Made by a program: the position numbers and the translations under genes | Shown: piece after piece, positions 3,421-42,641 of the stretch | Numbering within the stretch: the stretch's first letter is position 1 | Layout of the letters: the number at the start of each line of letters is the position of its first letter | Assembly: GCA_963693365.1 (NCBI GenBank) | Contig: CAVNZM010000021.1 | Span: forward strand, 1-64,000 | Reading direction: 5' to 3' | Source: Amoebidium appalachense | Lineage: Eukaryota; Protista; Ichthyosporea | DNA length: 64,000 nucleotides | Notes under the pieces: model-generated | What the model was told of the DNA's origin: nothing | Database searches by the model: none | The model's input: only the letters and a program-made list of their open reading frames with translations

Positions 3421-4438
3421 GCGTGGACTTGTCCGCGTCGGTGGGGAGCACGCGCGGGTTGATGGTGTTGGGGTCGGAGTCAAACTGCTCCATCAGGGCC
3501 TGGTTGACACGGGAGCGCTCGGCGATGGTCTGGTTGGCCTGGGCAATGGTCTGGTTGGCCTGCGCCAGCATGAGGGACCTCTCGCGCAGCATGGTGTCCT
3601 TCTCGCGCATGGTGGCGTCGTAGACGGCGATCTGCTTTTCATACCCATCCTTCACAAGAGCAAGGGCCTGGGCCTGGCCTTCCTGCATCTCGGTGAAGGT
3701 GCGCTTGAGTTCGCGAATGGTGTTGTCCTTCTCCTCGATGATGGGCTTGACGGTGCTGTCGAAGAAGCTGCGCATGGCATCGAGGAAGCCGTTCGAAGGG
3801 CCCGCCCGGGCAGCACGCACCTCGTCCATGTCGATGGCCATCTTGCTGGTGGTGGCCCCAGTGTAGCTGTCGCAGATGTCGATGACGTCCGCCAGCACCG
3901 TGTAGTCACCCGTGAACATGCGCGAGAGCAGCGCGTCCGTGTGCACGGCAAAGTCGGTGGAGACGTAGCGGGCAAGCGCCGGGAAGAGCGCGATGTGAAC
4001 GAAGGTGCCGCGCAGCGCTGGGTCGCCGGACTTCTTCTTGGAATTCGAGGTATCAATGACGTCATTGACACCCAAAGGACCAATGGGAGGAATCCTGTCA
4101 AATGACAGGATTCCACTGATTGGTTCGTTGATCTTGGAGAGGACCTTGTTGATGAGCTCGTCATGGCGCGCCTTCCAGTACGCCACCTGCTTCTCAGAGC
4201 CATCCAACGATCCACCCTTCTCGGTGTTGTACTCGCGTCCCACGTTGCACAGCATGGTGCCGTTGAAGTAGACGTGCCCGTTGGGGTAGGTGGTGGTCAC
4301 GGTCAGCACCTTGTCGCCGAAGTCCATGGCGGGCGGGGCGCGCACCTCCTTGAACGCGGGGTAGGCAGGGGTTGCCGGCTCTGGGGCAGCAGCGACCACC
4401 GCGTCCTTGGGTGCAGCGACGTTCATGTCGATGTCCAT
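3344..4438 (-). CDS. KilA-N domain protein, C-terminally truncated
   Basis: VYFNGTMLC...RGTFVHIALFPALARYVSTDFA KilA-N motifs and coiled coil; loses similarity to its paralog after YPHLRARLSNL. Confidence 0.8.
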   Translation of the reverse strand: MDIDMNVAAPKDAVVAAAPEPATPAYPAFKEVRAPPAMDFGDKVLTVTTTYPNGHVYFNGTMLCNVGREYNTEKGGSLDGSEKQVAYWKARHDELINKVLSKINEPISGILSFDRIPPIGPLGVNDVIDTSNSKKKSGDPALRGTFVHIALFPALARYVSTDFAVHTDALLSRMFTGDYTVLADVIDICDSYTGATTSKMAIDMDEVRAARAGPSNGFLDAMRSFFDSTVKPIIEEKDNTIRELKRTFTEMQEGQAQALALVKDGYEKQIAVYDATMREKDTMLRERSLMLAQANQTIAQANQTIAERSRVNQALMEQFDSDPNTINPRVLPTDADKSTLNGYPHLRARLSNLPMFWFLYRRIV

Positions 4439-4439
4439 G

Positions 4440-4789
4440 CTTGCTGGGTTGTGTTCGTTCAGTACTTGAGAGCAGAATGAGGCAGAATGAAGCAGCCAGG
4501 GCGCGCATCGGCTTTATGTAGTAGCGGCGGGTGGCTCACACGGAATCAATCATGAATCAGGCATGCACTGAAAATCTTGGTCATGCGCCCCTCCATGCTT
4601 TCTGGAATTTTCCACATTCGGCCGGGGTAAAGCGGCGGTCCTTCTCTGACGTCTCGATGCAACTCCTTCGCGAACCGCCTGTATTCGAACAGCCTGAGGC
4701 TTGTCTTTCTGCACTTTATTCCAGTTTCATCCAAGTTCATATTTACAATTTTTCATTGAAATGACCAAGCGGCTAGTTGTAAGTAATGA
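4440..4789. repeat. Duplicated upstream region of the tandem KilA-N genes (partner ~6299-6612)
   Basis: Shared blocks such as TTCAGTACTTGAG, GGCTTTATGTAGTAGCGG, TTCCAGTTTCATCCAAGTT, TAGTTGTAAGTAATGAA. Confidence 0.85.
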
Positions 4790-4857
4790 ACAGAAATCAA
4801 CAATATTCCAATACCCCCCCCACACACGTACTCAACACTACCCCCCCACCCCCAACC

Positions 4858-6318
4858 CTACATGCTTTGTGTCTCTGCCTCTGCGCACTGCGCCCGCTTG
4901 CCCCATTGTTTAGCAACAAATCTGCGCCGCACGCGTTTGGTACGTGGCTTGGGAATGAGTTCCAGCTCATCCTCGATGTCTAGGGGCTTGATGCCCGGAA
5001 ACTCCTTTTCAAACAAAACTCTAGTGCGGTAGAAGCTACAAGTCTGGCTGATCTCGGGCATCTTCTCGGCAAACCATGCCTCCGTGTTGTACACCACCGT
5101 GTAGGCCATCTGTGCGGTGATCTCGGTGCAGTACTTCACCTTGCGGCCCCACGAGGCCCCCGCTCGCAGCTTGATGGCGCCCGCAAGCACCGACCTCGCC
5201 ATCACTGTGTTCACGCTATCCTCGACGACGTGTCCCAGCACCTGTACGTTGAGTATCCCCTCGACAAACTGCTGGTACAGAGTGGTCGGGCCCACGGTGC
5301 TGCCCTTGAACAGTGCCGCCACAATGCTGTTGCCGAGGTTGAGCAGGCGCACGCGCAGGTGGGGGTACCCGTCCAGGGTGCAGCCGTCGGGGCTGCTGGG
5401 TAACACGCGCTTGTTGAGGGTGTTGGGGTCGCTCTCGAACTGTTCCATGAGGGCCACGTTGATCTGCGTGGCCTGCTGCAGCATCAGCGTCTTCTGCTTG
5501 TCCAGCTCCTTGTGCTGCATCACCAGCTCCTTGCTCTCACGCACGGCCATGTTGAGCAGGTCGATGGTGAGGTTCTTATCCTTGATGGTCTCGTTCTTCT
5601 CCTTGAGCAGCGGCATGAACTTGCTGTCGAAGAACGACGTCAGCATGCCCAGCATCTGCTCACCCGTGTCCGCCCGGGCAGCACGCACCTCGTCCATGTC
5701 GATGGCCATCTTGCTGGTGGTGGCCCCAGTGTAGCTGTCGCAGATGTCGATGACGTCCGCCAGCACCGTGTAGTCGCCCGTGAACATGCGCGAGAGCAGC
5801 GCGTCCGTGTGCACGGCAAAGTCGGTGGAGACGTAGCGGGCAAGCGCCGGGAAGAGCGCGATGTGAACGAAGGTGCCGCGCAGTGCCAGGTCGCCGGTCT
5901 TCTTGTTGGCATTTGAGGTGTCGATGACGTCATCCATGGTCACGTGACGAGCGGTGCCCATGGGCACCGCTCCTTTTTGATTGGCTGACTGATCGACCTT
6001 CTCGATGATCTTGTTGATGACATCCATGTTCTTGCGGCTCCACAGCACCACCTTCTTCTCGGTGTCTTGACCTGTCTTATCCATGTTGTACTCGCGCCCC
6101 ACGTTGCACAGCATGGTGCCGTTGAAGTAGACGTGCCCGTTGGGGTAGGTGGTGGTCACGGTCAGCACCTTGTCGCCGAAGTCCATGGCGGGCGGGGCGC
6201 GCACCTCCTTGAACGCGGGGTAGGCAGGGGTTGCCGGCTGTGGGGCAGGAGCGACCATTTGTTCCTTGGGCGCAGCGACGTTGATGTCGAACTCCATGTT
6301 TGCTGGGTTGTTTGTCAT
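4858..6318 (-). CDS. KilA-N domain protein with uncharacterised C-terminal domain
   Basis: N-terminus nearly identical to 3344-4438; C-terminal domain shared with 41739-42641; alternative start 6297. Confidence 0.85.
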   Translation of the reverse strand: MTNNPANMEFDINVAAPKEQMVAPAPQPATPAYPAFKEVRAPPAMDFGDKVLTVTTTYPNGHVYFNGTMLCNVGREYNMDKTGQDTEKKVVLWSRKNMDVINKIIEKVDQSANQKGAVPMGTARHVTMDDVIDTSNANKKTGDLALRGTFVHIALFPALARYVSTDFAVHTDALLSRMFTGDYTVLADVIDICDSYTGATTSKMAIDMDEVRAARADTGEQMLGMLTSFFDSKFMPLLKEKNETIKDKNLTIDLLNMAVRESKELVMQHKELDKQKTLMLQQATQINVALMEQFESDPNTLNKRVLPSSPDGCTLDGYPHLRVRLLNLGNSIVAALFKGSTVGPTTLYQQFVEGILNVQVLGHVVEDSVNTVMARSVLAGAIKLRAGASWGRKVKYCTEITAQMAYTVVYNTEAWFAEKMPEISQTCSFYRTRVLFEKEFPGIKPLDIEDELELIPKPRTKRVRRRFVAKQWGKRAQCAEAETQSM

Positions 6319-6775
6319 TCAGTACTTGAGAGGAGAATGAAGCAGCCAGGCGCGCGTTGGCTTTATGTAGTAGCGGGTGGCTCACACGGAATCGAACACG
6401 AATCAGTCATGCACTGAATCTCCAATCGCACCCAGCCTACACTTTCTGGAATTTTCCATATTCGGCCGAACCTTCCAACTCCCTCTCCCAAAACGCACCT
6501 GTGCATCCCGCCGAACAGGCTTGTCTTTCTGCAGTTAATTCCAGTTTCATCCAAGTTTACAAATTTACAATCCTTTCATCGAGATGATCAAGTGGTTAGT
6601 TGTAAGTAATGAAGTGCCTGCCAGCGGTCGAGCCGTAGCGAGCAAGCGCCGATGTGAACTCGCTTACACATTTAGGGCATGCCCGAATCACGCCCGCGGA
6701 TGTCGCATCCGGAAAATGCCCCCGGCATAATGGCTAATCCGACCCGTGAAAACCACAAAATCCCGCTGTGCATGC

Positions 6776-6985
6776 ATGGAGTCTGGCAATACCCGGATAT
6801 GGACCTTGCTACTGCTTGCCTTTATTGCGTACTCGGTGTGGCGGGAACTGGGTGTTCCGGAAAATGATGACACGTTCTGGATCAACGATGTCGAAGCAAT
6901 GGCGCCTCGCGAGCCGATCGTCGATGATTCGAGCGGAAAGGAAGTCATCTTTCGCACCTACCGCTACCTACCGCCAGGTATATAA
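6776..6985 (+). CDS. Small membrane protein
   Basis: IWTLLLLAFIAYSVW hydrophobic helix. Confidence 0.5.
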   Translation: MESGNTRIWTLLLLAFIAYSVWRELGVPENDDTFWINDVEAMAPREPIVDDSSGKEVIFRTYRYLPPGI

Positions 6986-11566: not shown

Positions 11567-12178
11567 CTAGATGTGCACCCAAAAATCAATATACACAATC
11601 GGATGCTCGCTGGCCGCGGTTGTTAGTTCATGGACACTATAGAAAACGCCATCACTAGCACGAAAAACACCCGAACCATCAAAATCAGCATATCTAGTTG
11701 CCCCAATTTGAACGGTGTAGGACATTGCCTGATGTAGATGTACCCTGAGTGACCCTATGGTGCAGAGCCAGGAGCCATTGAGCGCTGGGCCTAGCCGTTC
11801 AGGTCCACAGCATGTAAAGACGTGCACATATGCGCTTCCTTGGGCATAAAATAATGGAAACACGGGTAGTATATCGCGTGGCCTAAGGTCGGTCATCAAG
11901 CGAAATCCACCTGTGGATTTAGTCTCCGTAATCTCCCAACCACCAGGCGCATTTGAAGAAGCCTTCACAACCAAAGTTAAATCTGGCAGGCCACCAAACA
12001 AAGATGTGTACTCCACCTGTAGGCAATCCAGAAACCCTAACAGGCCAAGAACTTCAACGGCCCGGTTGTGGGTCATGTGCATGGAGATTTCTGTCAGGTT
12101 CGCAAGCCTTTGTATCTCCATCACATCAGGCAACCAAAAAAGGAGATGCCACATCTGTGCACACAAATCGTGCCCCAA
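11567..12178 (-). CDS. Hypothetical protein
   Basis: ORF only; start uncertain. Confidence 0.4.
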   Translation of the reverse strand: MGHDLCAQMWHLLFWLPDVMEIQRLANLTEISMHMTHNRAVEVLGLLGFLDCLQVEYTSLFGGLPDLTLVVKASSNAPGGWEITETKSTGGFRLMTDLRPRDILPVFPLFYAQGSAYVHVFTCCGPERLGPALNGSWLCTIGSLRVHLHQAMSYTVQIGATRYADFDGSGVFRASDGVFYSVHELTTAASEHPIVYIDFWVHI

Positions 12179-12446
12179 TCACGCACCAGCCAATCGCGCG
12201 TCAACAGCCAGGGTTAACAATTCAAAGCTTTCCCCTTTCGCTAAATTCACCACAGGCAATCATAAGAATTGTAATCGGCCTTCAAAAGAGTCCGCGAATA
12301 TCAATTCGCAATAGATTCCCTATCAATTGTTCTAACCGCGAATCAAATCGCTCAAAATGTTTACACTTTTACACAGTATAAAAGGCTGCATTTCCTTATC
12401 TTTGGGTCATTCGTACACTGTTCCGGTGGGTGGTGGAAGTGTGACT

Positions 12447-13838
12447 ATGAGCGTACACTACACACAGTTGTTAGGGCCGAGGCTCCCTAAGCTCGCGCCC
12501 CGACCTCAAACTGTGGCGATTCCAGGCAGCTGTACAACTAAACATGGTCTTTTGCACAATATCACCAGCTCGGGCCGACGCGGACGTCATATGCGAAAAA
12601 AGGGACTCGAAAACCTACGACGGCAACAAACAAATGACACGCGACTTTCTGATTCGAAAAAGATTTATTTTAAAGCTCTACACACCCCTCGGAGCGATTT
12701 CGATGCTTTGGTACCCGGATTGGGCTCTTTTCCTCTGCAGCAAGCCGTCGATTCTGGCACCACCTCTCTCACTCCGGTTTCAGCAGCAACCGTCGACGGC
12801 ACCGGCTTTGAATTCGATTTGGGGTTGGGCTCTTTTCCTCTGCAGCAAGCCGTCGATTCTGGCACCACCTCTCTCACTCCGGTTTCAGCAGCAACCGTCG
12901 ACGGCACCGGCTTTGAATTCGATTTGGGGTTGGGCTCTTTTCCTCTGCAGCAAGCCGTCGATTCTGGCACCACCTCTCTCACTCCGGTTTCAGCAGCAAC
13001 CGTCGACGGCACCGGCTTTGAATTCGATTTGGGGTTGGGCTCTTTTCCTCTGCAGCAAGCCGTCGATTCTGGCACCACCTCTCTCACTCCGGTTTCAGCA
13101 GCAACCGTCGACGGCACCGGCTTTGAATTCGATTTGGGGTTGGGCTCTTTTCCTCTGCAGCAAGCCGTCGATTCTGGCACCACCTCTCTCACTCCGGTTT
13201 CAGCACCAACCGTCGACGGCACCGGCTTTGAATTCGATTTGGGGTTGGGCTCTTTTCCTCTGCAGCAAGCCGTCGATTCTGGCACCACCTCTCTCACTCC
13301 GGTTTCAGCAGCAACCGTCGAAGGCACCGGCTTTGAATTCGATTTGGTGTTGGGCTCTTTTTCTCTGCAGCAAGCCGTCGATTTCGGCACCACCTCTCTC
13401 ACTCCGGTTTCAGCAGCAACCGTCGACGGCACCGGCTTTGAATTCGATTTGGTGTTGGGCTCTTTTTCATTGCAGCAAGCCGTCGATTTCGGCACCACCT
13501 CTCTCACTCCGGTTTCAGCAGCAACCGTCGACGGCACCGGCTTTGAATTCGATTTGGTGTTGGGCTCTTTTTCTCTGCAGCAAGCCGTCGATTTCGGCAC
13601 CACCTCTCTCACTCCGGTTTCAGCAGCAACCGTCGACGGCACCGGCTTTGAATTCGATTTGGGGTTGGATATCACAGAAATCGAGAAAATACTCGGCAGT
13701 ACCATCACACCCTCCAACAAAATGTCACCGATCAACTTAACCGAAGTTGGGTTAAACACGTTTTTTTGTGAACCGATCGATGAATTCGAAGAGATATGTG
13801 TTTTCTTATTGAAAGACGAATTGAAAGGATCGGTCTAA
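12447..13838 (+). CDS. Protein with a basic N-terminus and nine 35-aa acidic repeats
   Basis: TATA-like GTATAAAAGG at 12376; repeat GLGSFPLQQAVDSGTTSLTPVSAATVDGTGFEFDL. Confidence 0.65.
   Translation: MSVHYTQLLGPRLPKLAPRPQTVAIPGSCTTKHGLLHNITSSGRRGRHMRKKGLENLRRQQTNDTRLSDSKKIYFKALHTPRSDFDALVPGLGSFPLQQAVDSGTTSLTPVSAATVDGTGFEFDLGLGSFPLQQAVDSGTTSLTPVSAATVDGTGFEFDLGLGSFPLQQAVDSGTTSLTPVSAATVDGTGFEFDLGLGSFPLQQAVDSGTTSLTPVSAATVDGTGFEFDLGLGSFPLQQAVDSGTTSLTPVSAPTVDGTGFEFDLGLGSFPLQQAVDSGTTSLTPVSAATVEGTGFEFDLVLGSFSLQQAVDFGTTSLTPVSAATVDGTGFEFDLVLGSFSLQQAVDFGTTSLTPVSAATVDGTGFEFDLVLGSFSLQQAVDFGTTSLTPVSAATVDGTGFEFDLGLDITEIEKILGSTITPSNKMSPINLTEVGLNTFFCEPIDEFEEICVFLLKDELKGSV
12720..13668 (+). repeat. 105-bp tandem repeat, nine copies
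   Basis: Units start at 12721, 12826 ... 13561; near identical, with variants clustered in the last units. Confidence 0.97.
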
Positions 13839-24418: not shown

Positions 24419-24589
24419 ACGACAGGGCAACATTATTCTGACCTCGAGCAGTGTTTCACGTCCGTGGCGCCGCGACGAGCAAACTGCCCATCTATAAAAG
24501 GCACCGCATACTCCCCCTAACCCCATCCCATCCACCTCCCTCGCCCGCCCCCCCCCCGCCCCCCCCCCCACCCCCCGCTGGCCTACCAT

Positions 24590-24809
24590 TCGTCACGTGA
24601 CTTACATAGAACAGGATGCACTGTGAGCTGCAAGCTGGTAGCTCAGGCTACCGCTCGTCACGTGACCTGTAAGGGACATCAGCCAATCATAGAGGAGTGG
24701 TGGCTGTAGCCACCGGTCGTCACGTGACCTGTATGGGACATCAGCCAATCATAGAGGAGTGGTGGCTGCGCCATGGCGATGCTCTTGCCACTGCCACGGG
24801 GGCCGACAA
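24590..24809. repeat. Tandem CCAAT/palindrome/GTCACGTGAC cassettes ending in an A32 fragment
   Basis: TCGTCACGTGAC at 24590, 24655, 24717; 62-bp period; 24769-24809 matches 23644-23684 at 38/41 nt. Confidence 0.88.
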
Positions 24810-25769: not shown

Positions 25770-27188
25770 TTATGGGAAGCGGATGGTCGGCCAATTTTCC
25801 TGTCGTGCTAGGTCGTTCCATGCCTCCATGACCACTCTGAATCCTGTGTAGTTGTTGGCAAGCTGTTCCTGGTTACCCGACTTCCCCCCAATCCTGATAT
25901 GTTGCACGTGTCTACGCACCAGGCACTTAAACTCAAACTCAAAATTCCGAGCCTCGATCTTGTCTTTTGCTGGAATGGCAAGGAGCACGTTATCCAAAAT
26001 CTTGTCACGGCATTTCTCCTTTTTGTAGCGCTTGGCAATGCCATCTTGTCCGGTCATTCCAAACATCAGCGTGCCATCGCAGTTGTCGACAAAGTACATG
26101 CATGGTCCGGTCTTTGCTTTGTCTGTTACCTCCTTATTGAGCTCGCCGAGGACGTAAAACCGCGAGTCGAGGCGCGACAGCAGGGCCTGTGACTCTTTAT
26201 TCTGTTCGTGTGCTAGGGCCATTGTTCTCCTCTTGGCCTCCTCCTTCCGTTCACACTCCTCAGCCCGGGCCCTTGCTTCTTCCACCCTGGCCCTGGCAAT
26301 GCGCTCCTCCTCGTCTGCTCTAACCTGAGCTGCTAGTGCCTCTGGGTTGAGGTTAACTGCAGCCTGTTTCTGAAGCATCACCACCTTCTCCGCAAGCTCG
26401 ATTGCCCTCTCTGGTAGATATCCACCATTCTTCTTCATCATCCAATATTTGATGTCTGTTTCAACCACCACCATTCGCGGCCGCTTAACAACTATCGTGT
26501 CTGGTGTAGACGGTCTCTTTCCGATTGCCTCGGTCATGTCGATGTGCACTGACTGTGTGTGAGATCCGTCGCCGCGTCCGTGGTCTGCAATACGGACAAG
26601 ATCCTTCAAAAAATCCATATTGCCGAGGTGTGACTTCAGCATCACGTCGTCCCAGAAGGTAAGGAGCGACGGAAAGCAGTAACGCAGGAATGCGGGTGCC
26701 AGTTCAAAGGCCATCCACGCCCCTCGATACATTTCCAGCTCTGGTTCCATCTCATGAGTAACATAGCAATTGTTCGGTAGTTTTTTGATTCTTGTATACT
26801 GCCCGCGAACCAGCCAATCCGGGGAACTTCCTTCCGGTAAGAAGTTCCTTTTGCATAGTGTAAATGTTTTATCTACGACCGACTTGTTGTTGATGACCCA
26901 TTGAGCAGCACCCTTTCTTGTTTGCTCCTCCTTCGATGCACTCATGGCCGAGTACCCCGCGTTGAAGAAGACATGCCCGGCGAACTTTGTCAGGTACGTG
27001 AGCACGCTCCCCCCATCTGGCGCAAAAAATGGGCGAACGCCGGGCCACTCGGGCACAGAGCTCGTGTCCACGCGTGTTTCGATTTCCGGGTGCCATTCTG
27101 GGCCCAGAGGGGTGTGGGTTGCTGCAGAATTCTTTTGGACACGGTCGTATGCAGGCGGTGGGGCACTGGGGACGTGTGCTGTGGCCAT
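25770..27188 (-). CDS. Divergent KilA-N plus T5orf172/GIY-YIG-like protein
   Basis: HVFFNAGY...RGAWMAFELAPAFLRY; C-terminal CMYFVD...MFGMT...KRY. Confidence 0.75.
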   Translation of the reverse strand: MATAHVPSAPPPAYDRVQKNSAATHTPLGPEWHPEIETRVDTSSVPEWPGVRPFFAPDGGSVLTYLTKFAGHVFFNAGYSAMSASKEEQTRKGAAQWVINNKSVVDKTFTLCKRNFLPEGSSPDWLVRGQYTRIKKLPNNCYVTHEMEPELEMYRGAWMAFELAPAFLRYCFPSLLTFWDDVMLKSHLGNMDFLKDLVRIADHGRGDGSHTQSVHIDMTEAIGKRPSTPDTIVVKRPRMVVVETDIKYWMMKKNGGYLPERAIELAEKVVMLQKQAAVNLNPEALAAQVRADEEERIARARVEEARARAEECERKEEAKRRTMALAHEQNKESQALLSRLDSRFYVLGELNKEVTDKAKTGPCMYFVDNCDGTLMFGMTGQDGIAKRYKKEKCRDKILDNVLLAIPAKDKIEARNFEFEFKCLVRRHVQHIRIGGKSGNQEQLANNYTGFRVVMEAWNDLARQENWPTIRFP

Positions 27189-27341
27189 TGCTAATGGCAC
27201 AGAAAAAAAACAATAATGAAAAAAAAGAATGGGAGAAAAGGGAGAAGACCGCGAACCCACCACAACCCCAAACCGCCCAAGGTACCCCATCCATACGCAG
27301 CAAACCACACCCACAGACCGGAGAACACGTTTGCCCATCCC

Positions 27342-28178: not shown

Positions 28179-28558
28179 GATGTAAAGCTGCGACAATAAA
28201 AGGAGAATAGGGTTGACGTGTCGCCCCGTTCTGTTGCGATTGGGGAGAAAAAGATGAATTGGGGTATGGTTTTCTGATTGATTTTAGGAGAAGGAGTGGA
28301 ATCGATTAACCTGTTCTCTATGAAAACGTGGACCAGATGGTGACAGAATTCGGCGACTTCTCTCTGGTTTGGTAAGAAAAGGGTTGTGTTGATCAGAAGT
28401 GTTGATCTGGAGAATATGTTACGCTTATATACCTGCACCCCCCCAATCCTTTGTTCTGGTGGAAGAACTGTCCTCGGAACTGTCCTTGGTATCTTCTTTA
28501 TGCTGGCGTAACCAGTACACAGGCGCTCATTAGCGCTAGCCTCTGACCAAGGAGTGTC

Positions 28559-28675: not shown

Positions 28676-28881
28676 GGAATTTTCATTTTTTTTTCAACGT
28701 TTTTTTTCTCTTTTTCGTGCAGCGTTTGTTGTTCTGGGGGGATGGAGCATCTGGGCCTTTGTTAACCGTTGGGCCCAGAAGGGGGTTTTTTTTTTCCCGG
28801 CCCTCCCCCGTGACAAAAAATTTTTTTTTGGGGGGTATTTTTAAAAAAAAAAAAAATTTTTCGGGGTTTTGTTTTTTTTTT

Positions 28882-28912
<31 letters not shown>

Positions 28913-28989
28913 GGCCCCCGCCCGCCCCGGGTTTTTTTCTTTTTTCCCCCCCCTAAAAAAAAAAAAAAAAAAAATTTTTTCCAACCAGA

Positions 28990-30324
28990 TCACACCAGCC
29001 GAATATCATCCTCTCCGTAAACTTCCTTGAACGCATTTGAGACGCGTACATAGTCCGCGGCAAACATCTCCCGCTTGTTCCCAACTGCACACCTCACCGG
29101 CTTCAGTTGGTTCTGCACCAGTTTCTCGAACTGCTCGGCCTCCTTCTTGTTGCGGTGGGGCATGCACAGGATGATAAGCTCCTTCATGTCATGGGACCAG
29201 AGGTCATACTTGTAGCGTTCGAATAGAGAGTTCCCTGTGTGCCCAATCTTGATGTAGCCGTCGATGTGCAGTGCGTACACACATGCCCCTGCCGCCGCCT
29301 TGAGAGACCACTCGAAGTTTAGCTGCCGCCAGGCCACAAAGTGCACGTCCAGTCCCTTGAGCTCGGCCTTCATCTCGCGCACAGCCTTGACCATGGCAAG
29401 CGTGGAGTCGATGCCCCGCTGTATTGTGTCCTGTTTGGCTTTCTCGGTACGCTCAGCCTCCTCGGCGCGCTTGACAGCGGCGAGCGCTTCGGGGTTGTCA
29501 TTGGTACAGAAATCGCGATGTACAGTAACCACAAAGTGGTGCAGCTGCTTCATGGCCGTGTCAAAATCAACCCCGGGTTTGAACCAGCGATCCGGATCGA
29601 GCATGGCATCCAGTGTGCTTCGTTTGACCACTGCCGACTCGGCGTCCTCTTCTCGCTCACGCTTCCGGGACCCCTCGTTCATGTCGATGGTCACGGACCG
29701 AGTCCTGCATCCATCACCTCGTCCCTGGTCGGCAATGCGAATCAACTCGGGGAAGAAGTCCATCTGGCCCAGGTGCGACTTGACCATCACCCCGTCCCAG
29801 AACTGGCGCAGGTCGGGAAAGCAGTAGCGCAGAAAGGGGGCCGTCAGCTCGAAAGCCATCCAGGTGCCACGAAACATCTCGAGGGTGGGTGTCAGGCCAT
29901 GAGTTGCAAATGCACATACAACAGAGTTATCGGGTTGAGAAACTGTAGGGAGCTTCTTGATGTTGGCATAACCCGACCGTATCAGCCAATCAGAGGAGAG
30001 GCGCTCGTGAGCGCTTGTCCTCTGAATCAGCCTCAGTACATCTTCCACTAAAGCAGAATTGTTCCTCTTCCAATCCATGGGTTTCTTTTTTACCCCCGCC
30101 TCCTCAGCCCCCTTGCCCGCCGAGTACCCCGCGTTGAAAAACACGTGCCCGTCGTACTTGCTGAGCCACGTGAGCACCCTCCCCCCGTCGGGCGCGTAGA
30201 ACGGGCGCACCCCGGGCCAGTCGGGCACGGACGAGGTGTCGACACGCGCCTCATTGCCAGGAGCGGGCTTCCAGGTGGGCCCGATGACGGGAGTGGAATA
30301 GGGCGGGGGGTTGTACCGTGCCAT
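28990..30324 (-). CDS. Divergent KilA-N plus T5orf172/GIY-YIG-like protein
   Basis: Paralog of 25770-27188; CVYAL...YIKIGHT...ERY...REMF; TATA at 30356-30366. Confidence 0.82.
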   Translation of the reverse strand: MARYNPPPYSTPVIGPTWKPAPGNEARVDTSSVPDWPGVRPFYAPDGGRVLTWLSKYDGHVFFNAGYSAGKGAEEAGVKKKPMDWKRNNSALVEDVLRLIQRTSAHERLSSDWLIRSGYANIKKLPTVSQPDNSVVCAFATHGLTPTLEMFRGTWMAFELTAPFLRYCFPDLRQFWDGVMVKSHLGQMDFFPELIRIADQGRGDGCRTRSVTIDMNEGSRKREREEDAESAVVKRSTLDAMLDPDRWFKPGVDFDTAMKQLHHFVVTVHRDFCTNDNPEALAAVKRAEEAERTEKAKQDTIQRGIDSTLAMVKAVREMKAELKGLDVHFVAWRQLNFEWSLKAAAGACVYALHIDGYIKIGHTGNSLFERYKYDLWSHDMKELIILCMPHRNKKEAEQFEKLVQNQLKPVRCAVGNKREMFAADYVRVSNAFKEVYGEDDIRLV

Positions 30325-32675: not shown

Positions 32676-32897
32676 TCAGAGCCTGGAGCCTACAAACACG
32701 TCGATGTCGTGACGGGAGAACGGCCTGTTTCTGTAGCGGCGTGTCAGCTCGGCCTCCAGTCTGCGAGTGGTGGTGACATCAACCCTGCTGCGGCTTTTAT
32801 ACTTACGCATTACGGCGTTGAAAATACGCTGGAGGTTGCGGTTGCCAGTCAGGTGCAGGAGCCCGAACCGTCTGAGTTTGCGTTTAGCCAGGGGCAT
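32676..32897 (-). CDS. Small basic protein
   Basis: 73 aa, Arg/Lys-rich. Confidence 0.45.
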   Translation of the reverse strand: MPLAKRKLRRFGLLHLTGNRNLQRIFNAVMRKYKSRSRVDVTTTRRLEAELTRRYRNRPFSRHDIDVFVGSRL

Positions 32898-35800
32898 AGT
32901 GCCAGCCCCAATTATTTACTGGCGAGGACATCTGCGGTTGAGGGTTTGGGAACGGCAGCTCGGGCGTCCGTGCCTGGTAGGCATACCACGGCTGTGCCTG
33001 GTAGGCAGTAGCCCAGGCGGACCTTGCGGCTGCCTGAGGGGAAAATTCCCGATCCTGCCCGGTAAAGCCAATGGCCTCAGACGGGACCTGTGGGTATTGG
33101 TTGGTGGGCGGGACCCCGGCTTGTTCCGAAGGGACGTAGGTCATCTGCTGAAGCGGGAATCCGGGACTGGGAAGCTGCGGCTTTGGCAAAATCCTACGCA
33201 GGTTCGACGGTGCAGGGAAGGCAACACCCATTGGGGCCTTTGGTAAAACCCTACGCAGGTTCGAGGGTGCAGCGTAGGCAGCACCCATTGGGGCCTTTGG
33301 TAAAACCCTACGCAGATCCGAGGGTGCAGCGTAGGCAGCACCCAACACGCTGGAACTATGATTCTGCTCCGTGTGTTGCCGCTTGCGCTTCTTTGATTTG
33401 GGTGGCGGCGGGGCTGGCTCCCCCACCATGCTCGCTGGGGTAGGGGGGCTGAACTGGTCAAACCAATTATGTGTCAGACTGGAGGGCTGTATAGGCCTAC
33501 GAACGTCCACTACTTCCGCAGAGTCCATGATCCGCTTGCGCTTCACTGATTGGCGTGGCGGCGGGGCTGGCTCCCCCACCATGCTCGCTGGGGTAGGGGG
33601 GCTGAACTGGTCAAACCCATTATGCACTGGGTTGGAAGTCTGGTGCAAGCTCATCGGGCTTGAGTCCACGTCCATGCTCGCTTGGCTGGCGGTGGAAAAC
33701 TGGTCAAATCCATTACGCATTAGACTGGAATTCTGGTCTAAGCTCATCGGGTCTGGGGTCGGAGGGTTGAACTGGTCAACGTCCATGGGGGTTGTGGGGG
33801 GTTGAACAGTAGCAGCAGGGATGTCGGTTCCCGCTTGAAGTGGAACTTCTTCGTTGGGTGCCTGTGCTGGATGGGAGGGATCGGGTATGTCGGTGCCCCC
33901 CTTCTTAGCGGCGTCCTTTTTTCGTTTGGCGCGCTTTTCGTAGATTGATGCGAACAGACCATCGACCTCGGCAGGGTTCTGGGTCTGCACACGGGCTCTG
34001 CGCAGATCGTTGAGCTGATCGCGGGTGGTGAAGCTCTCTTGAAGCTCGGCCTTCAGCTCCTTGTTCAGGGCGCCCAGCACAGCCCTTGCACGTACGCTAG
34101 CAGCCGCAAGGACGTCCGCGTTTTGCGAGAGCGACTCCGGAAGCACGGGTGTGGCAGGAGCTTCGGGCTTGGCCGGCTTGTGCTTTGCGGGTCGTTGTGT
34201 GGCCACCAGCTCCTTGCGCTGCCAGGCCTTGGGGTCGTTGCTGAAGAGCTCCCACCGTTGGTCGCCGACTGAAGGGGCAACGCGCGCATATGCACGCACC
34301 AAATCGTCTGTGCTGCGGCCCCTGGACAAGGTGTCCGTCACGGACGCGCGGCCTGCAGGCGTGAGCCGCCACAGCGCGCCTGCGTGGCTGATGAAGCATG
34401 CGGGGTTCTGCAGTATGCTGTCGCGCAGGCGGCGTAGCTGGAAGAGGGGCCAGTTGGGGTTGTTGGGCCACTTGAGGGGCTTGTCCTGTGGGTTCGTAAC
34501 CTTAAGTACGCGCGTGTAGATGGTCCCCTCGGGGGCGAAGAAGCCCATGCGGTCCTTGCGGATGTTTGCATTGCGGGTGATGTTGACTGGCAGGCCGTAC
34601 CCGCACTTTTTCAACCAGTTGACGACATAGTCCGGGTTTTTCTCGATCAGGGCGCAGCCGTCCTGGATCAGCTTGCGCAGGTGGTAGTAGGTTTTGGGAT
34701 AGTGGGCGCGCACATGCTGCTTGACGAACCCGATAGCCAACTCGGCAATGTTGTATTTGGAGTTGTAAGGTGGCAGCCACTGGAAGCGCCAGCGCTTGCG
34801 CACGGCCAGCTGCTTGGTTTTGTCTTTGTTTTCCTCGGTGTTGTGCACGGGGGCGTTGTCCATGCACAGAATGGCGCGGTCGGTGCGAGGATCGACGGCC
34901 AACACATGCTCAAGAAACACACTGAAGGTACGCCCGTCGAGCTCGTCCGCAACAAGCTCCTTCTTCGAGAGCGGGGCCTCCCGCTCGCGGCCGTTTGGCG
35001 CAAGATGCCGGTAGTTGAACAGGGGGTCGTCCGACGGCCGTGGGCTGAGGATCAGGTACTTGACAACGGCACGCATGGATCCGTCACTTTGCTGCTTGGG
35101 AAATCCCACGGCTATCAACAGCTTGGTGCCTATGCCGCGAAGCTTGGGCTTGGGCGTCTTGTGGTGCGAACCGCGGTGGCCCCACACACGCCCTGGCGTC
35201 TCGTCAAGGTACACCGAGGCCTCGTCAATGAACACAAGGTTCTGGCGGTTGTCCTGTAGGTACGGCAGACGCTCAACCTCAAAGTACTGCGTGGCGGCGG
35301 CCACGGACCGCACAAACGTGTTGGTGGGGTCGCCCTCGCCGCGGCGGAACGTCAGCCCGAGGCGCCTTCGCCACTTGTTGAGCGTGGACACCGCCACGGC
35401 CATGCGCTCGGCCTCGGGCAGCCCCGGGATGGCGTTGTAGGTGGCGATGAGCTTCTCGCTGGTCAGGCTGGGCACCTTCGTGGTGAGCTCGTACAGCACG
35501 ACCTTCTGAACGTCCGTCAGCTTAGTCGCCTTCTCGTTTGCCTTCCCAAGGTTGAAGCCCTGGCGGCTGCCAAGCTCGCCGTGCTTAATTGCACGCGAAA
35601 TGACCCGGCGCACTGTCTGTGGGCTTATCTTCAGCCGCCGCGCAATGACGGTGGCCTTCTCGTCCCGAAGGTGCCCGAGCAGGATGGCGTCGCGAATGTC
35701 CTGCGCGTACGCCTTTCCGCGCCCTAGGCGCCCGACAGGCTGCTCGGCCGTTGTCAGTGTGTGCACTTCGATTTCAACAGGCGGGGCGTTTGTCAGCGGC

Positions 35801-37644
35801 TTCTCCGCGTACCAATGTCCCCCCGGCACCAGCAGCAGCCGGGCTCCATCGGGGCCCTCTACCCAGATGGCCCCCTCTGTTGAGTCTGGCCCGCCATGGG
35901 CGACCTTGTTGTCGGGGAGAAGGCCTAGGGTGAAGGGGTCTTGCTTCACGTGGCTGCGGGTCGGCAGGGTTTCGTAGACCACTGAGCGGACAGGCGATGG
36001 GCTGCCTGGCGCCTCGACATTGAGCAGGTCACCCGTGGACTCCAGGGGCATCATCCTCTGGCGCTCCAGCTGGTACAGCGCAAGAGGGGACCGCCCGTCG
36101 GGCGGCTGCGGGTAGAACCCAACAAAGGTGGCATTGGACTTGTAGACAACAGGCCTGCCCGTGTGCTCCACAACGTGCATGGCCACAAACATGGTGCGGG
36201 GCACGTAACGGTCAAGCCGCAACACGAGGTACGTGAGGGGTCGGAAGTGGTTTGATATGTTCGGATCCACAAACACAATCCCGCACACCGAATCTGTGAT
36301 GTCGGTGGTTGTGTTGACGGCGGCAGTCGGCTGGCGAGGCTTCCCGGCGGTGTACAGTCCTGAAAGCTGCTCCCGCTTTCGCGCAGCCCAGGCGGCGACG
36401 GCCGTGCGTGCGTTTTCTGCTGACACGCCCAGCGCATGCGCAACTGTAGCGAGCTCCTGGGCTGTCGAGTCCGCGGTGGTAGGCGCGGGCGCCTCTGCCC
36501 TTCGTCTAGTTGCAACCGCACCGATGATTCGTTTGCGTACATCGTCGTAGCCCTGCCGGACCATGCTCTCCCCTCCGCTGGTGCTCTTTTTCACCTCGTC
36601 AAAGAAACGATTGTGCATCTCGAACTCCTGCTCGCTTGCGCGGGTTTCACCTGCCCGGGGCCGCCCCCTAGCGAGCTGAAAACCCCTGGCATTTTCCAGC
36701 GGCAGATCGGTATCTTTAGCAAGTGCTTCGAGGATGGGCTTCGCCCGCTCATAGAACTCCTGCTGTGAAAGGTCGCTTGCGACCCTCATTGTCAGGTCCT
36801 TGAGGGCCTGCCGCATGGTGTCGCGGTCGGCACCGGATGCACGCAGCTCACGGGCCAACTTTGCGCGCTCGGCTATCAGGGTCTGAAGCGCGTGTTTGTA
36901 GGGGTAGGCCCGCTCGTCGTCCGGCCGGTCGACCCCTTCCACGAATTCAGGTCGGGGAAGCCCGGGCACCATCAGGGCCAGGGCCTCGAGCATGTTGGCG
37001 TCCCCGGCATCTTCTGACTGCTCGACTCTGTCTTCTTTCTTTCGCATGGCGTCATTCGTTTTCCGTATGCTTTGCCCCTCCAGTCGCTGAGCCTCAGCAA
37101 GCGCGGCGTACGCCATTCGCATGCGCTCCGGATGGTCCGGACGGGCAGGCTGACGGCCAGGGTGGTTTTGCCATGCCTTGGTAAACAGGGAGTGACCAGT
37201 CGAATCAGTTACACCCTCAAGCTTGACTAGGCGCGGTGTGGTTGTGCGCACATACACCTTGTCCAGGACTCCCTGGACAACTTCGGCGGTTTTGCGCGCC
37301 TCGTCTTGAGGGTCGTTGGGTGCGGCAAGATCTTTCCCCGCAAGCTCCTCCCACCAGGTTGCGGATTGGGGAAGCGGTGCCGGGGCTGACGACGCTGGTG
37401 CGTACATGGGGTCGCGGATGCGGAACCGTGGATTCAGGCCGCTGTCCCTTGCCTGTTTGTCAGTGCCTGTGTTGTAGGACGGGTGCTGCCGATCCTGCAC
37501 GAGCTGTGCGAGGGGAAAGGGAAAGTCGGCCAGGGGTTCAAGATAGAAACGGCCGGGATTCTCGGCACTTGGCCAGGCTTCGGCCACGACTTTATTGGAC
37601 TGGGTGTCCACTACAATATATCCAGGCGTACGTTTGCGGTCCAT
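32884..37644 (-). CDS. ~1590-aa protein with an embedded HTH and IS630/Tc1-mariner DDE domain
   Basis: IARRLKISPQTVRRVI; VFIDEA; CMDNAPVH; LPPYNSKYNIAE (D-D38-E); low-complexity C-terminal repeats. Confidence 0.85.
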   Translation of the reverse strand: MDRKRTPGYIVVDTQSNKVVAEAWPSAENPGRFYLEPLADFPFPLAQLVQDRQHPSYNTGTDKQARDSGLNPRFRIRDPMYAPASSAPAPLPQSATWWEELAGKDLAAPNDPQDEARKTAEVVQGVLDKVYVRTTTPRLVKLEGVTDSTGHSLFTKAWQNHPGRQPARPDHPERMRMAYAALAEAQRLEGQSIRKTNDAMRKKEDRVEQSEDAGDANMLEALALMVPGLPRPEFVEGVDRPDDERAYPYKHALQTLIAERAKLARELRASGADRDTMRQALKDLTMRVASDLSQQEFYERAKPILEALAKDTDLPLENARGFQLARGRPRAGETRASEQEFEMHNRFFDEVKKSTSGGESMVRQGYDDVRKRIIGAVATRRRAEAPAPTTADSTAQELATVAHALGVSAENARTAVAAWAARKREQLSGLYTAGKPRQPTAAVNTTTDITDSVCGIVFVDPNISNHFRPLTYLVLRLDRYVPRTMFVAMHVVEHTGRPVVYKSNATFVGFYPQPPDGRSPLALYQLERQRMMPLESTGDLLNVEAPGSPSPVRSVVYETLPTRSHVKQDPFTLGLLPDNKVAHGGPDSTEGAIWVEGPDGARLLLVPGGHWYAEKPLTNAPPVEIEVHTLTTAEQPVGRLGRGKAYAQDIRDAILLGHLRDEKATVIARRLKISPQTVRRVISRAIKHGELGSRQGFNLGKANEKATKLTDVQKVVLYELTTKVPSLTSEKLIATYNAIPGLPEAERMAVAVSTLNKWRRRLGLTFRRGEGDPTNTFVRSVAAATQYFEVERLPYLQDNRQNLVFIDEASVYLDETPGRVWGHRGSHHKTPKPKLRGIGTKLLIAVGFPKQQSDGSMRAVVKYLILSPRPSDDPLFNYRHLAPNGREREAPLSKKELVADELDGRTFSVFLEHVLAVDPRTDRAILCMDNAPVHNTEENKDKTKQLAVRKRWRFQWLPPYNSKYNIAELAIGFVKQHVRAHYPKTYYHLRKLIQDGCALIEKNPDYVVNWLKKCGYGLPVNITRNANIRKDRMGFFAPEGTIYTRVLKVTNPQDKPLKWPNNPNWPLFQLRRLRDSILQNPACFISHAGALWRLTPAGRASVTDTLSRGRSTDDLVRAYARVAPSVGDQRWELFSNDPKAWQRKELVATQRPAKHKPAKPEAPATPVLPESLSQNADVLAAASVRARAVLGALNKELKAELQESFTTRDQLNDLRRARVQTQNPAEVDGLFASIYEKRAKRKKDAAKKGGTDIPDPSHPAQAPNEEVPLQAGTDIPAATVQPPTTPMDVDQFNPPTPDPMSLDQNSSLMRNGFDQFSTASQASMDVDSSPMSLHQTSNPVHNGFDQFSPPTPASMVGEPAPPPRQSVKRKRIMDSAEVVDVRRPIQPSSLTHNWFDQFSPPTPASMVGEPAPPPPKSKKRKRQHTEQNHSSSVLGAAYAAPSDLRRVLPKAPMGAAYAAPSNLRRVLPKAPMGVAFPAPSNLRRILPKPQLPSPGFPLQQMTYVPSEQAGVPPTNQYPQVPSEAIGFTGQDREFSPQAAARSAWATAYQAQPWYAYQARTPELPFPNPQPQMSSPVNNWGWHYAPG
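33180..33620. repeat. Coding repeats (~60 bp x3; ~165-bp spacing x2)
   Basis: AAPSxLRRVLPKAPMG repeats and FDQFSPPTPASMVGEPAPPP twice. Confidence 0.85.
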
Positions 37645-39366: not shown

Positions 39367-39440
39367 ATAAAAGGGGGTGTGGGGAGGGGGGGCCCCCCCC
39401 CCCCCCATTTTGATCCCACCCCCCTCTCTGCTCTCTGGAT

Positions 39441-40880: not shown

Positions 40881-40973
40881 GTTACCAGGGGGCGGAATGA
40901 AAGGACGGGAGCGGGGAGGGGCTTATATACCTGGGACGCACAAGGGATTTGAATTCGTTGTAGACGGCATCTG

Positions 40974-41228
40974 ATGTTTCTACGAAGCCTTCCACAGTTC
41001 TATGTAAAGCCCTACCGAGTGGACTTTTTTTTCCCACATGTAAATCTGGTGGTGGAGTGTGATGAGCACAACCACGATGACCGCGACCCGATCTACGAGG
41101 AAGAGCGCCAGAACCACATCACCAAGCAATTGGGATGCAGGTGGCTACGATACAACCCACACGCAGAAGACTTTATTGTGTACCGGGTTGTCAGTGATAT
41201 TTTTGAGTTGGCGATGCTCGTGTTGTAA
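40974..41228 (+). CDS. DUF559/Vsr-like endonuclease domain, possibly a fragment
   Basis: QFYVKPYRVDFF...LVVECDEHNH...WLRYNP. Confidence 0.78.
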   Translation: MFLRSLPQFYVKPYRVDFFFPHVNLVVECDEHNHDDRDPIYEEERQNHITKQLGCRWLRYNPHAEDFIVYRVVSDIFELAMLVL

Positions 41229-41506
41229 CCTTGAAAAATTGACCACACCAAAACTGGTGACTCTCAGTAAGGTCGATTTGATTGGTGGAAACGGTGGGTG
41301 ATGTATGACGTCATCGAGATGAATTCGGCCAATCACATCAACCTTACTGCCAGTAGGATTGAGAATCGCAAAGCGGTTTGCTGCTCATGAAATTCGTCAC
41401 GACTTGCCCGTTCGGCAATTTGGCGAAGGTATAAAAGGAGTCGTGCGCGTCTGAATCATTCAGTCCACCCAAGGAGCCCTTCCAGCAACACGGATCCCGC
41501 ATCAAC

Positions 41507-42641
41507 ATGGACAACCCTACCCCAGCCAGCATCAACATGGACAGCCTCGCCAAGCAGTTCCCCATGTTCAAGAACGCCGGTATGCGAGTCGACCAGGCTA
41601 CCAACAAGGCCAGCGTTCTGGACGCCATCGCGCTGGTGCTGGGGAATCGCAATGCCGCACACAAGGCTTGGCATGACATGAAAATGACCAGTCAGAGCGC
41701 CCCAATCGTCAAACCTACCGGCAGTAAGGTTGACTTGATTGGGCAGAACTTACTTGAGTGACATCATCGACATTCGCCTGCCAGGCATGAGCAAGCCCAC
41801 CCCGATGGCCCCCTTCAAGACCCTGCTCGAGATCATCTACCTGCTGCCCGGCAAGCGTGCGCACGAGGTGCGCCGCACCAGCGCGGCGTACATGTCGCGC
41901 CTGCTCGCCGGCGACCTGTCGCTCATCGACGACATCGAGGCCCGCTACGCCAACAGCACGCCCGAGGAGCGCGAGTTCTTCCGTAACGGCGTCGAGGAGA
42001 CCCCCGAGCGCGCGGCCAAGCGCACGGCCCGCGAGGCGCAGCTGGAGGAGCTGGTGGCCGAGAAGACCAAGCTGCTGAAGGTTGCCATGGAGCTGATGGA
42101 CGAGCAGCGGCTGACCATTGCGCTGCGCAACGGGGCCATCCGCCAGATGCGCGAGCAGATCAACTCGGACCCCCACACGCTCAACGAGCGCGTGCTGCCC
42201 GATGACGTAGGCAAGTGTGCACTGGACGTCGGGTGCGAGGTGCTGCGCGCACGCCTGCTCAACTTTGCCAACAGCGTGGTGAGTGCGCTGTTCGCAGACC
42301 AGACATCAGGCGAGGCGTGGCTGATCCGCAAGTTCGTCAAGGACACCGTCGGTGTGAGCATCTGGGACGAGAAGGAGGGGCGCGTGAGCGTGGTGCTTGC
42401 CCGCACGGCCTTGCAGGGAGCCATCAAGCGCCGGATCATCGAGGGGTGGAAGCGCAACGTCACCTACTGCACGGAGATGACGGTGCTCGAGGCGTACACG
42501 GTGCTGAGTAGGGCACGGGACTGGCTGTGCCTGCACATGCCCAAGACGCAGCACACGCACAACTTCAGCGATGTGGTGGACCTCCTGGAGTCCAAGTACA
42601 CGGGGGTCCAGCCGCTTGCCATGGAGCCGGCACTCGCTTGA
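41507..42641 (+). CDS. Bro-N-like DNA-binding protein split at a 43-bp hairpin
   Basis: ASVLDAI (frame A), then LPG..KPTPMA...LLPGKRA...LAGDLSLIDDI (frame B); TATA at 41428. Confidence 0.72.

What the first reader, a model, noticed from the sequence alone, without database searches (positions are those of the whole stretch)
4079..41743. Fixed-geometry CCAAT + variable-palindrome cassette inside every KilA-N/Bro-like gene and in intergenic copies
Seen: all five DNA-binding genes carry a different palindrome inside the DNA-binding-domain coding region, next to a CCAAT box. They are GGAATCCTGTCA-aa-TGACAGGATTCC (4089-4114), GAGCGGTGCCCATGGGCACCGCTC (5949-5972), GGAACTTC-N10-GAAGTTCC (26823-26848), TCAGAGGA..GCGCTC-gt-GAGCGC..TCCTCTGA (29990-30025) and GTCAA..TAC-N5-GTA..TTGAC (41708-41734). 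The distance from the T of CCAAT to the palindrome centre is 17.5, 19.5, 17.5, 17.5 and 17 nt. Intergenic copies show the same spacing: 19.5 (centre 2336.5), 19.5 (centre 24706.5) and 17 (centre 41350). Where GTCACGTGAC is present it is always 12.5 nt from the centre (5948, 24657, 24719). In both KilA-N paralog pairs the palindrome lies in the variable peptide between conserved blocks. Inference: a structure-conserved, sequence-variable module. It could be an operator encoded inside its own regulator, an hr-like origin/enhancer, or an exchangeable cassette that diversifies the protein and its site together. I know of no description of this arrangement but could not search.
Basis: partly seen in the sequence, partly recalled or inferred. 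Interest (0 to 1): 0.92.

Follow-up and report, generated by a model that had tools for sequence, protein, structure and literature searches.

The report
Viral genes encoding their own operator
Five DNA-binding genes of a giant-virus-like region each carry a different mirror-symmetric DNA site inside their own coding sequence, beside a host-type CCAAT promoter box, and in related virus and phage genes the site's letters change in step with the protein's DNA-reading helix, so each protein likely recognises its own gene.

Summary
All five KilA-N/Bro-like genes carry a palindrome 17-19.5 nt from a CCAAT box: 8 of 114 CCAAT sites, 0.7 expected.

The palindrome is a KilA-N family feature. 64 of 103 non-redundant domains from viral and metagenome contigs have one at the same place; controls give 3 and about 9.

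Its bases track the predicted recognition helix. Asp..Arg goes with G and His..Glu with C at base 5, even at a synonymous Pro codon (38/38 versus 14/15). Intervening residues show no such link.

Two paralogues here are near-identical except in a 180-nt block holding helix plus palindrome. Intergenic copies match the 41507-gene and 4858-gene sites.

The CCAAT coupling is specific to this lineage: none of 64 relatives has it at this spacing.

Best reading: a self-encoded, swappable operator, here joined to a host-type promoter box. Binding is untested. Ten literature searches found no description. Unchecked notes of this scan report the palindrome in prokaryotic genes.

The parts
3344..4438 (-). 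KilA-N gene 1
   Evidence: Pfam PF04383 E 3.6e-6, above cut-off
4080..4123 (.). In-gene cassette: 12-bp-arm palindrome 4089-4114 with a CCAAT box 17.5 nt from the centre on each side; read as E-P-I-S-G-I-L-S-F-D-R-I-P-P-I-G
4052..4231 (-). Variable specificity block of gene 1 (predicted recognition helix through palindrome); about 50% identical to gene 2 between flanks that are 90-100% identical
4858..6318 (-). KilA-N gene 2
   Evidence: Pfam PF04383 E 2.2e-6; model: cassette lies in the low-confidence loop 115-123 after helix 98-114
5925..5986 (-). In-gene cassette: consensus CCAAT box 5978-5986, perfect 24-bp palindrome 5949-5972, GTCACGTGAC 5939-5948, TGACGTCA 5925-5932; read as S-A-N-Q-K-G-A-V-P-M-G-T-A-R-H-V-T
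25770..27338 (-). Divergent KilA-N gene 3
   Evidence: no Pfam hit; profile-profile match of its family to the KilA-N alignment, probability 97.7%
26814..26848 (+). In-gene cassette, CCAAT on the non-coding strand, palindrome 26823-26848
28990..30324 (-). Divergent KilA-N gene 4 with C-terminal T5orf172 domain
   Evidence: PF10544 E 4.6e-4
29984..30025 (+). In-gene cassette, consensus CCAAT box on the non-coding strand, palindrome 29990-30025
41507..42641 (+). Bro-N-like gene in two reading frames (41507-41761, 41787-42641); shares its C-terminal domain with KilA-N gene 2
   Evidence: Atlas lead only, best score 0.89; second piece 38% identical to full-length P0009; first piece gives no significant BLAST match to P0009; C-terminal profile hits gene 2 at E 1e-43
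41702..41742 (.). In-gene cassette, imperfect palindrome 41708-41734 with CCAAT on both sides
41264..41362 (.). One and a half copies of the gene-5 site in that gene's own upstream region (CCAAT plus left arm: 20/22 at 41329, 19/22 at 41285); TATA-like box at about 41430
   Evidence: (I11)
24580..24790 (+). Intergenic array of 3-4 units of about 62 nt resembling the gene-2 cassette (19/25 and 18/25), with paired changes in the inner arms
   Evidence: (I3)
2325..2375 (-). Intergenic copy upstream of ORF 2464-3420: two CCAAT boxes and a palindrome sharing CTGTC with gene 1 at the same distance from CCAAT
   Evidence: the overall match to gene 1 (15/23) does not stand out from background

Best explanation
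Each KilA-N/Bro-like gene carries, inside the DNA that codes for its DNA-binding domain, a two-fold symmetric site that its own protein likely binds as a dimer, and in this lineage the site lies at fixed spacing from a CCAAT box that is predicted to bind the host factor NF-Y. Shown: the palindromes; their fixed place in the domain (loop between the helix after the recognition helix and the wing); family-wide conservation of symmetry with changing letters; and covariation of helix residues -1/+2/+3 with base 5 and -4/-2 with base 6. Inferred: helix and site lie in one block of about 180 nt, so exchange of that block between otherwise near-identical paralogues would give a new protein together with its matching site. 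Bound protein would limit transcription of its own gene (negative autoregulation) and act on promoter copies of the same site (41.3 kb, 24.6-24.8 kb), next to or against the host CCAAT factor.
For: Palindrome score >=8 at the homologous place in 64 of 103 domains; 3 in a downstream control window; 8.8 expected after synonymous recoding; centre in one codon frame in 54 of 64. KilA genes 1 and 2 here share that frame (offsets 92.5 and 83.5). His/Asp at -1 agrees with C/G at base 5 in 54 of 56 rows and Glu/Arg at +2 in 57 of 57, with 13-14 changes on a tree built without those columns. In 6 independent pairs on supported branches, 5.6 went the same way and 0 the opposite way, p about 0.03. The link holds at synonymous bases: Pro codon 38/38 versus 14/15, Fisher p 6e-12; left-arm four-fold codons 20/20 versus 9/9. 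Residues +4 to +15, nearer the palindrome on the DNA, and the third codon bases of -1 and +2 show no link to base 5, which argues against mere linkage. In the group with another reading frame, the one Asp..Arg row has G and both His..Glu rows have C; gene 4 here (Asp..Arg) has G in both arms. Mismatches are not enriched for G-U type (20 of 113) and pairing runs through the centre, which fits double-stranded DNA. The element is read in three frame/strand combinations in the window. Upstream copies of the gene-5 site lie in its own promoter region.
Against: No binding or expression data. The code was derived from canonical family members; window genes fit it only in part (gene 3 has Ala at -2 but C at base 6; genes 1 and 2 lack Asp at -1 yet have G). 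Only one of five tree tests reached p<0.05; the others had too few supported pairs, and the tree has 89 columns for 69 rows. 0 of 69 relatives has a second copy within about 1.5 kb on either side, so promoter copies are not general. Genes 3 and 4 have no clear intergenic copy. In the fungal homologue PCG2 the wing, not the helix, reads the DNA (PMC4862756, passage seen). No relative of this lineage was found as DNA, so CCAAT conservation outside the window rests on peptides and one laying of contigs.
Confidence: 0.62

Rival explanations
1. Self/non-self marking rather than expression control: the protein would inhibit replication or expression of co-infecting genomes or host DNA, and the cognate in-gene site would protect the genome that carries it, as aba does for BstA. 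Block exchange would create new compatibility types.
For: BstA has a KilA-N-like domain and a cognate DNA element overlapping its own gene (PMC8585504, passages). Gene 4 carries a T5orf172 domain. Many versions of the block appear to coexist: 1187, 647, 148 and 82 contigs were laid in four runs, and cover falls about ten-fold across the block in X1. Relatives lack promoter copies (0 of 69). This reading shares the self-recognition step with the best explanation.
Against: aba overlaps the start of the gene and has direct repeats; the paper never uses 'palindrome' or 'inverted repeat'. Association with CCAAT, E-box-like and TATA-like motifs points to transcription.
Confidence: 0.2
2. The palindrome is a recombination or gene-conversion signal (cruciform or single-strand hairpin) that drives block swapping and domain shuffling. 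Symmetry would be kept by template switching and the protein would not read it.
For: Sharp boundaries of the variable block. Tandem duplication of the cassette peptide in P0001/P0015 and repeated inserts in P0002. The reading-frame break of gene 5 lies just after its cassette. Joints near cassette edges in laid contigs.
Against: It does not explain why only residues on one helix face track particular bases, while closer residues and synonymous sites do not. The block boundary is about 100 nt from the palindrome on the helix side.
Confidence: 0.1
3. An hr-like replication origin or enhancer, or an internal promoter, that happens to sit in these genes and is read by host factors only.
For: The CCAAT consensus is enriched (16 versus 4.8). 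The gene-2 cassette carries CCAAT, E-box-like and CRE-like motifs together. A small tandem array exists at 24.6-24.8 kb.
Against: Cores differ between copies. The palindrome exists without CCAAT in phage and other viral genes. Baculovirus hrs are arrays of one 28-30 bp core (PMC4758234, passage).
Confidence: 0.05
4. An mRNA hairpin (pause, processing or translational control), or a by-product of the peptide sequence.
For: The strands can fold (about -6 to -14 kcal/mol with DNA parameters).
Against: No G-U enrichment and pairing through a zero-length loop; no Rfam match; synonymous recoding loses the symmetry; three reading frames are used.
Confidence: 0.03

Closest known systems
BstA-aba (prophage KilA-N-like protein with cognate DNA self-immunity element; PMC8585504, passages read)
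   Same: KilA-N-type domain; a short DNA element overlapping the protein's own gene; variant proteins paired with variant elements.
   Different: aba is 63 bp across the start codon with terminal direct repeats. Here the element is a dyad in the middle of the DNA-binding domain's coding sequence, with a residue-base correspondence, in a eukaryotic virus-like region. No defence activity is shown.
Autoregulated HTH families with a residue-base code, e.g. LacI (PMC2978694, abstract and section list read)
   Same: Palindromic site; two or three helix residues track particular bases; repeated independent switches on the tree.
   Different: The LacI sites were sought in intergenic regions near the gene. 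Here the site is itself protein-coding, inside the domain, and lies in one exchangeable block with the helix.
KilA-N/APSES domains (Pfam PF04383; Mbp1 structures; PMC4862756, passages read)
   Same: Domain family and fold assignment.
   Different: That paper says little is known of the recognition sequence outside fungi, and that fungal PCG2 reads DNA with the wing. No in-gene palindrome was found described.
Baculovirus hrs and bro genes (PMC4758234, passages read)
   Same: Palindromes in large DNA viruses; multicopy, shuffled Bro-N/T5orf172 genes.
   Different: hrs are intergenic arrays of one core. The passages seen do not place palindromes inside bro genes.
Composite CCAAT elements with fixed spacing (ERSE with ATF6/NF-Y; HapX with the CCAAT-binding complex) - recalled, not checked here
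   Same: A CCAAT box at fixed distance from a second factor's site.
   Different: The partner site here is a variable viral palindrome, partly inside coding sequence.
Rickettsia palindromic elements (protein-coding palindromes) - recalled, not checked here
   Same: Palindromic DNA read in frame in a tolerant loop.
   Different: Those are homologous repeats inserted in unrelated genes. Here the letters differ between copies, the position is fixed, and only KilA/Bro genes carry it.

Membership tests
KilA-N domain (PF04383) | Profile match above the curated cut-off (genes 1, 2) | tested here: met
   27.2 and 27.9 bits versus 23.8
KilA-N domain (PF04383) | Homology of genes 3 and 4 to the family | tested here: met
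   No direct Pfam hit, but profile-profile probability 97.7%, E 2.5e-12, over 174 columns
Bro-N domain (PF02498) | Profile match for gene 5 | tested here: inconclusive
   No Pfam or PHROG hit; Atlas best 0.89, a cluster with 10% Bro-N members, a lead only
BstA-aba system | Element spans the start codon and has terminal direct repeats | tested here: not met
   The element is a mid-domain inverted repeat versus the description
BstA-aba system | Abortive infection with cognate self-immunity | not testable with these tools
   needs infection assays
Autoregulatory operator | Site sequence tracks the recognition residues of the encoded protein | tested here: met
   In canonical KilA-N relatives; only partly checkable for the four window genes
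Autoregulatory operator | Direct binding and repression of own transcription | not testable with these tools
   no binding or RNA data
Baculovirus-type hr | Intergenic arrays of one shared palindromic core at many loci | tested here: not met
   Five different cores, five of them in coding sequence, one small array
NF-Y-type CCAAT box (consensus recalled) | RRCCAATCR enriched and mostly upstream of genes | tested here: met
   16 versus 4.8 expected, 0 of 100 shuffles; 13 intergenic, the other 3 all in KilA cassettes
Structured RNA element | G-U tolerant stem with a loop; Rfam family | tested here: not met
   20 of 113 mismatches are G-U type, about the 1 in 6 expected by chance; 0 Rfam matches

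The most novel reading that the evidence does not exclude
KilA-N and Bro-like genes are self-addressed specificity modules. A block of about 180 nt encodes both a recognition helix and, in overlapping code, the site it reads. Viruses from phages to giant viruses and poxvirus-like genomes reprogramme these proteins by swapping the block. This lineage has wired the module to the host CCAAT factor, giving a programmable viral-host composite promoter element and possibly a self/non-self system among co-resident viruses.
Probability: 0.4. Interest if true: 0.93.

Novelty: categorically new. Interest (0 to 1): 0.8.

Why it matters
KilA-N is among the most widespread viral DNA-binding domains and the source of fungal APSES/SBF factors, yet its binding sites outside fungi are essentially unknown (PMC4862756, passage). 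If each gene spells out its own site, the target of a family member can be read from its coding sequence and tested directly, with a residue-base code already in hand. It would also explain why these genes are multicopy, with one hypervariable block between homogeneous flanks. The CCAAT coupling would show how a virus using host-type promoters fitted a phage-age operator into eukaryotic transcription.

Tried and rejected
No whole genome is held for the window. No DNA relative of this lineage was found: viral contigs with gene 2, A2 and A9; metagenome contigs with A1; phage records (only E about 1 tail-fibre noise). The pattern CCAAT-box..GTCACGTGAC gave 0 matches in viral contigs. A double-CCAAT pattern gave 2 matches without a convincing inner palindrome, treated as chance.

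Foldseek with the full-length model gave no match at E<=0.001 (model mean pLDDT 60), so the fold assignment rests on sequence profiles. The Atlas gave no usable hit for gene 4. No RNA holder was listed. Read-level swaps could not be examined: all laid runs were contigs.

Peptide-only test of palindrome compatibility: full 11/11 compatibility (0.1% of centres overall) in the variable loop of all 4 window genes and of 7 of 13 relatives (P0002, P0003, P0005, P0006, P0010, P0011, P0013), but not P0001, P0004, P0007, P0009, P0012, P0015. Equally good scores occur elsewhere in some proteins, so this is weak support only.

An intron reading of the cassettes was considered and dropped: four of five genes are open across it and relatives keep the peptide. 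The host was not identified; the A32 ATPase search returned no named organism. The 2002 domain-shuffling paper is not held and was not read. No supplements were read.
Full report
CONTEXT. The window has the gene set of a nucleocytoplasmic large DNA virus: A32 ATPase, D5-like helicase, PCNA, a histone-fold protein and a C5 methylase. No whole genome is held. The closest named relatives of the KilA genes are three proteins on one 183-kb contig of a Daphnia sinensis assembly. The true host is not known; the A32 search gave no named organism. In four coded runs, 1187, 647, 148 and 82 contigs were laid on 2000-6700, almost all on the two KilA genes. This suggests a multicopy family, but the tool warns that summed contig depth is no copy number. 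Protists with hundreds of integrated giant-virus regions are described (PMC11244446, passages; it never mentions KilA or palindromes). I did not establish that this window is one of them.

OBSERVATION. The palindromes, coordinates and spacings are as reported. 8 of 114 CCAAT sites have a palindrome score >=7 at 17-19.5 nt, against 0.7 expected (window chosen after the fact, and two sites flank one palindrome). Synonymous recoding matches the real score in 0, 11, 8, 0 and 4 of 1000 trials. The five genes are all the KilA/Bro-type genes that profile searches found in the window. Genes 1 and 2 are Pfam KilA-N. Genes 3 and 4 are divergent homologues. Gene 5 is Bro-like on weak evidence and lies in two frames. 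The element is read as S-A-N-Q in gene 2, as E-P-I-S in gene 1 and from the opposite strand (D-W) in genes 3 and 4, so it is kept as DNA, not as peptide. In a model of gene 2 it falls in a low-confidence loop.

THE PALINDROME IS FAMILY-WIDE. Scans with canonical KilA-N alignments returned 19, 80 (of 298), 80 (of 302) and 80 (of 556) loci, overlapping and ranked by likeness to the query. From 256 loci, 263 anchored domains reduced to 137 unique and 103 below 80% identity. 64 of 103 have a palindrome score >=8 at 30-100 nt before the wing glycine; 3 do in an equal window downstream, and 8.8 are expected after recoding. At score >=10 the counts are 38, 0 and 0.9. 54 of the 64 centres fall in one codon frame, the frame of window genes 1 and 2. 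The set includes contigs named as giant-virus MAGs, phage-sized contigs and poxvirus-like contigs. A loose end in run X3 at the gene-1 cassette shows a different palindrome beside the same CCAAT box, with the core commonest in the canonical family, and X16 has a shorter loose end of the same kind. This ties the window's element to the family one.

THE SITE TRACKS THE HELIX. 74 of the 103 domains had at least 8 of 12 pairs in the canonical frame and a callable helix; I dropped 5 as mis-anchored, leaving 69. This selection inflates pairing counts but not the helix test. Counting from the conserved aromatic residue, positions -1 and +2 covary with base 5 from the centre (z 16 and 21) and -4 and -2 with base 6 (z 7 and 10), in the 67 rows without indels. 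His/Asp agrees with C/G in 54 of 56 rows and Glu/Arg in 57 of 57, with 14 and 13 changes on a tree built without helix or palindrome columns. In 6 independent pairs on supported branches, 5.6 agree and none oppose (p about 0.03). The other four tests had no opposing pair but too few pairs for significance, and the tree is poorly resolved. The tracked base is often synonymous: Pro codon CCC in 38 of 38 Asp..Arg rows, CCG in 14 of 15 His rows, p 6e-12. So protein epistasis cannot explain it. Residues +4 to +15 and the third codon bases of -1 and +2 show no link to base 5, so simple linkage is unlikely. In the ten domains of the other reading frame, the Asp..Arg row has G and both His..Glu rows have C; rows with Arg at +2 but no Asp mostly have C. 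Window gene 4 (Asp..Arg) has G in both arms; gene 3 does not fit the base-6 rule. G-U type mismatches are 20 of 113 and pairing runs through the centre, as for a double-stranded dyad. The lead to test this covariation came from an unchecked note on ORF6N genes; the KilA-N test is my own.

A SWAPPABLE BLOCK. Genes 1 and 2 match at 27-30 of 30 bases in every window from 4381 to 4232 and from 4021 to 3812, but only 9-20 of 30 from 4231 to 4052. That block runs from just before the predicted recognition helix to just after the palindrome. Cover in run X1 falls about ten-fold over the block in both genes, as expected if many versions share the flanks. Relatives show tandem duplication of the cassette peptide. 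Exchange itself was not observed.

WHAT IS SPECIAL HERE. CCAAT lies 10-25 nt from the centre in 3 of 64 relatives, none at 17-19.5. In the window the consensus RRCCAATCR (recalled NF-Y consensus) occurs 16 times against 4.8 expected. 13 are outside called genes and the 3 inside are the cassettes of genes 1, 2 and 4; 21 of 23 TATA-like boxes are also outside (the gene set there is a rough one). Peptides compatible with the box occur at the same place in 5 of 8 lineage relatives (P0001, P0015, P0006, P0002, P0004; not P0003, P0005, P0007). The best non-self matches of the gene-5 cassette lie 180-230 nt upstream of its own start, before a TATA-like box (20/22, 19/22). Those of the gene-2 cassette are the array at 24.7 kb (19/25, 18/25). 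Genes 1, 3 and 4 have no match clearly above background. None of 69 relatives has a second copy in its 3-kb locus, so such copies are not a family rule.

MECHANISM. Most likely (0.62) each protein binds its own in-gene dyad and restrains its own transcription, and here also acts at promoter copies beside a host CCAAT factor. Self/non-self marking in the manner of BstA-aba (0.2) shares the self-recognition step, so self-recognition overall stands at about 0.8. A pure recombination signal (0.1), a host-read origin or enhancer (0.05) and an RNA hairpin (0.03) fit less well. Binding, dimer formation, regulation and NF-Y involvement are all untested. One caution: the fungal homologue PCG2 reads DNA with its wing.

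LITERATURE. Ten full-text searches, including KilA-N + palindrom (7 papers), Bro-N + palindrom (15), p28 + N1R + poxvirus + palindrom (0) and palindrome + coding sequence + autoregulation + recognition helix + covariation (3), showed no description in their listings. Passages were read in PMC11244446, PMC8585504, PMC4862756, PMC8557863, PMC4758234 and PMC13712841; for PMC2978694 I read the abstract and section list. Subscription papers and supplements were not seen. Unchecked notes of this scan report coding palindromes in prokaryotic KilA-N, Bro-N, ORF6N and RhuM genes; none came up for giant viruses with CCAAT or for look-alikes of this window.

VERDICT. A real feature. A probable self-encoded operator shared by the KilA-N family, seen here in a eukaryotic virus-like region with a lineage-specific CCAAT partner and promoter copies. 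Not found in print. Interest 0.8.

Noticed in passing
L009, L011 (also L010, L017, L019): KilA-N paralogues on large poxvirus-like contigs carry perfect 38-bp palindromes (19-bp arms) at the homologous place, with paired changes between paralogues. Contig lengths equal those I recall for canarypox, fowlpox and an entomopoxvirus (recalled, not checked).
   Followed up: partly
P0001, P0015, P0002: The cassette peptide is duplicated in tandem in P0001/P0015. Between these two close relatives a Gly-Val and a Pro-Thr change fall at mirror positions, as a paired base change would give. P0002 has a longer repeated insert at the same site.
   Followed up: partly
window 551-757: About five spaced copies of a CATTGGACGCC-like motif in non-coding DNA; another CCAAT-containing repeat.
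   Followed up: no
window 28518-28543: Partial match (18/26) to the gene-4 palindrome in the gap between genes at 28178 and 28990; a similar 18/26 match at 11767. Both are near background.
   Followed up: partly
window 28800-28975: Nested homopolymer tracts (T20, G23, C and A runs) forming long inverted repeats just after the end of gene 4.
   Followed up: no
window 28311-28379, 58124-58192, 60398-60466: A dispersed 69-nt non-coding repeat family (65-75% identity).
   Followed up: no
window 32884-37644: 1586-aa ORF with HTH and DDE_3 transposase-like domains and internal repeats.
   Followed up: no
window 12357-13838: ORF made of nine near-identical 105-nt repeats.
   Followed up: no
window 14025-62311: Giant-virus-type gene set: A32 ATPase, D5-like helicase, PCNA, C5 methylase, histone-fold protein, polysaccharide lyase 14, Fic, patatin. 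Three KilA relatives lie on one 183-kb contig of a Daphnia sinensis assembly. A protist epibiont or parasite as true host is my inference only.
   Followed up: partly
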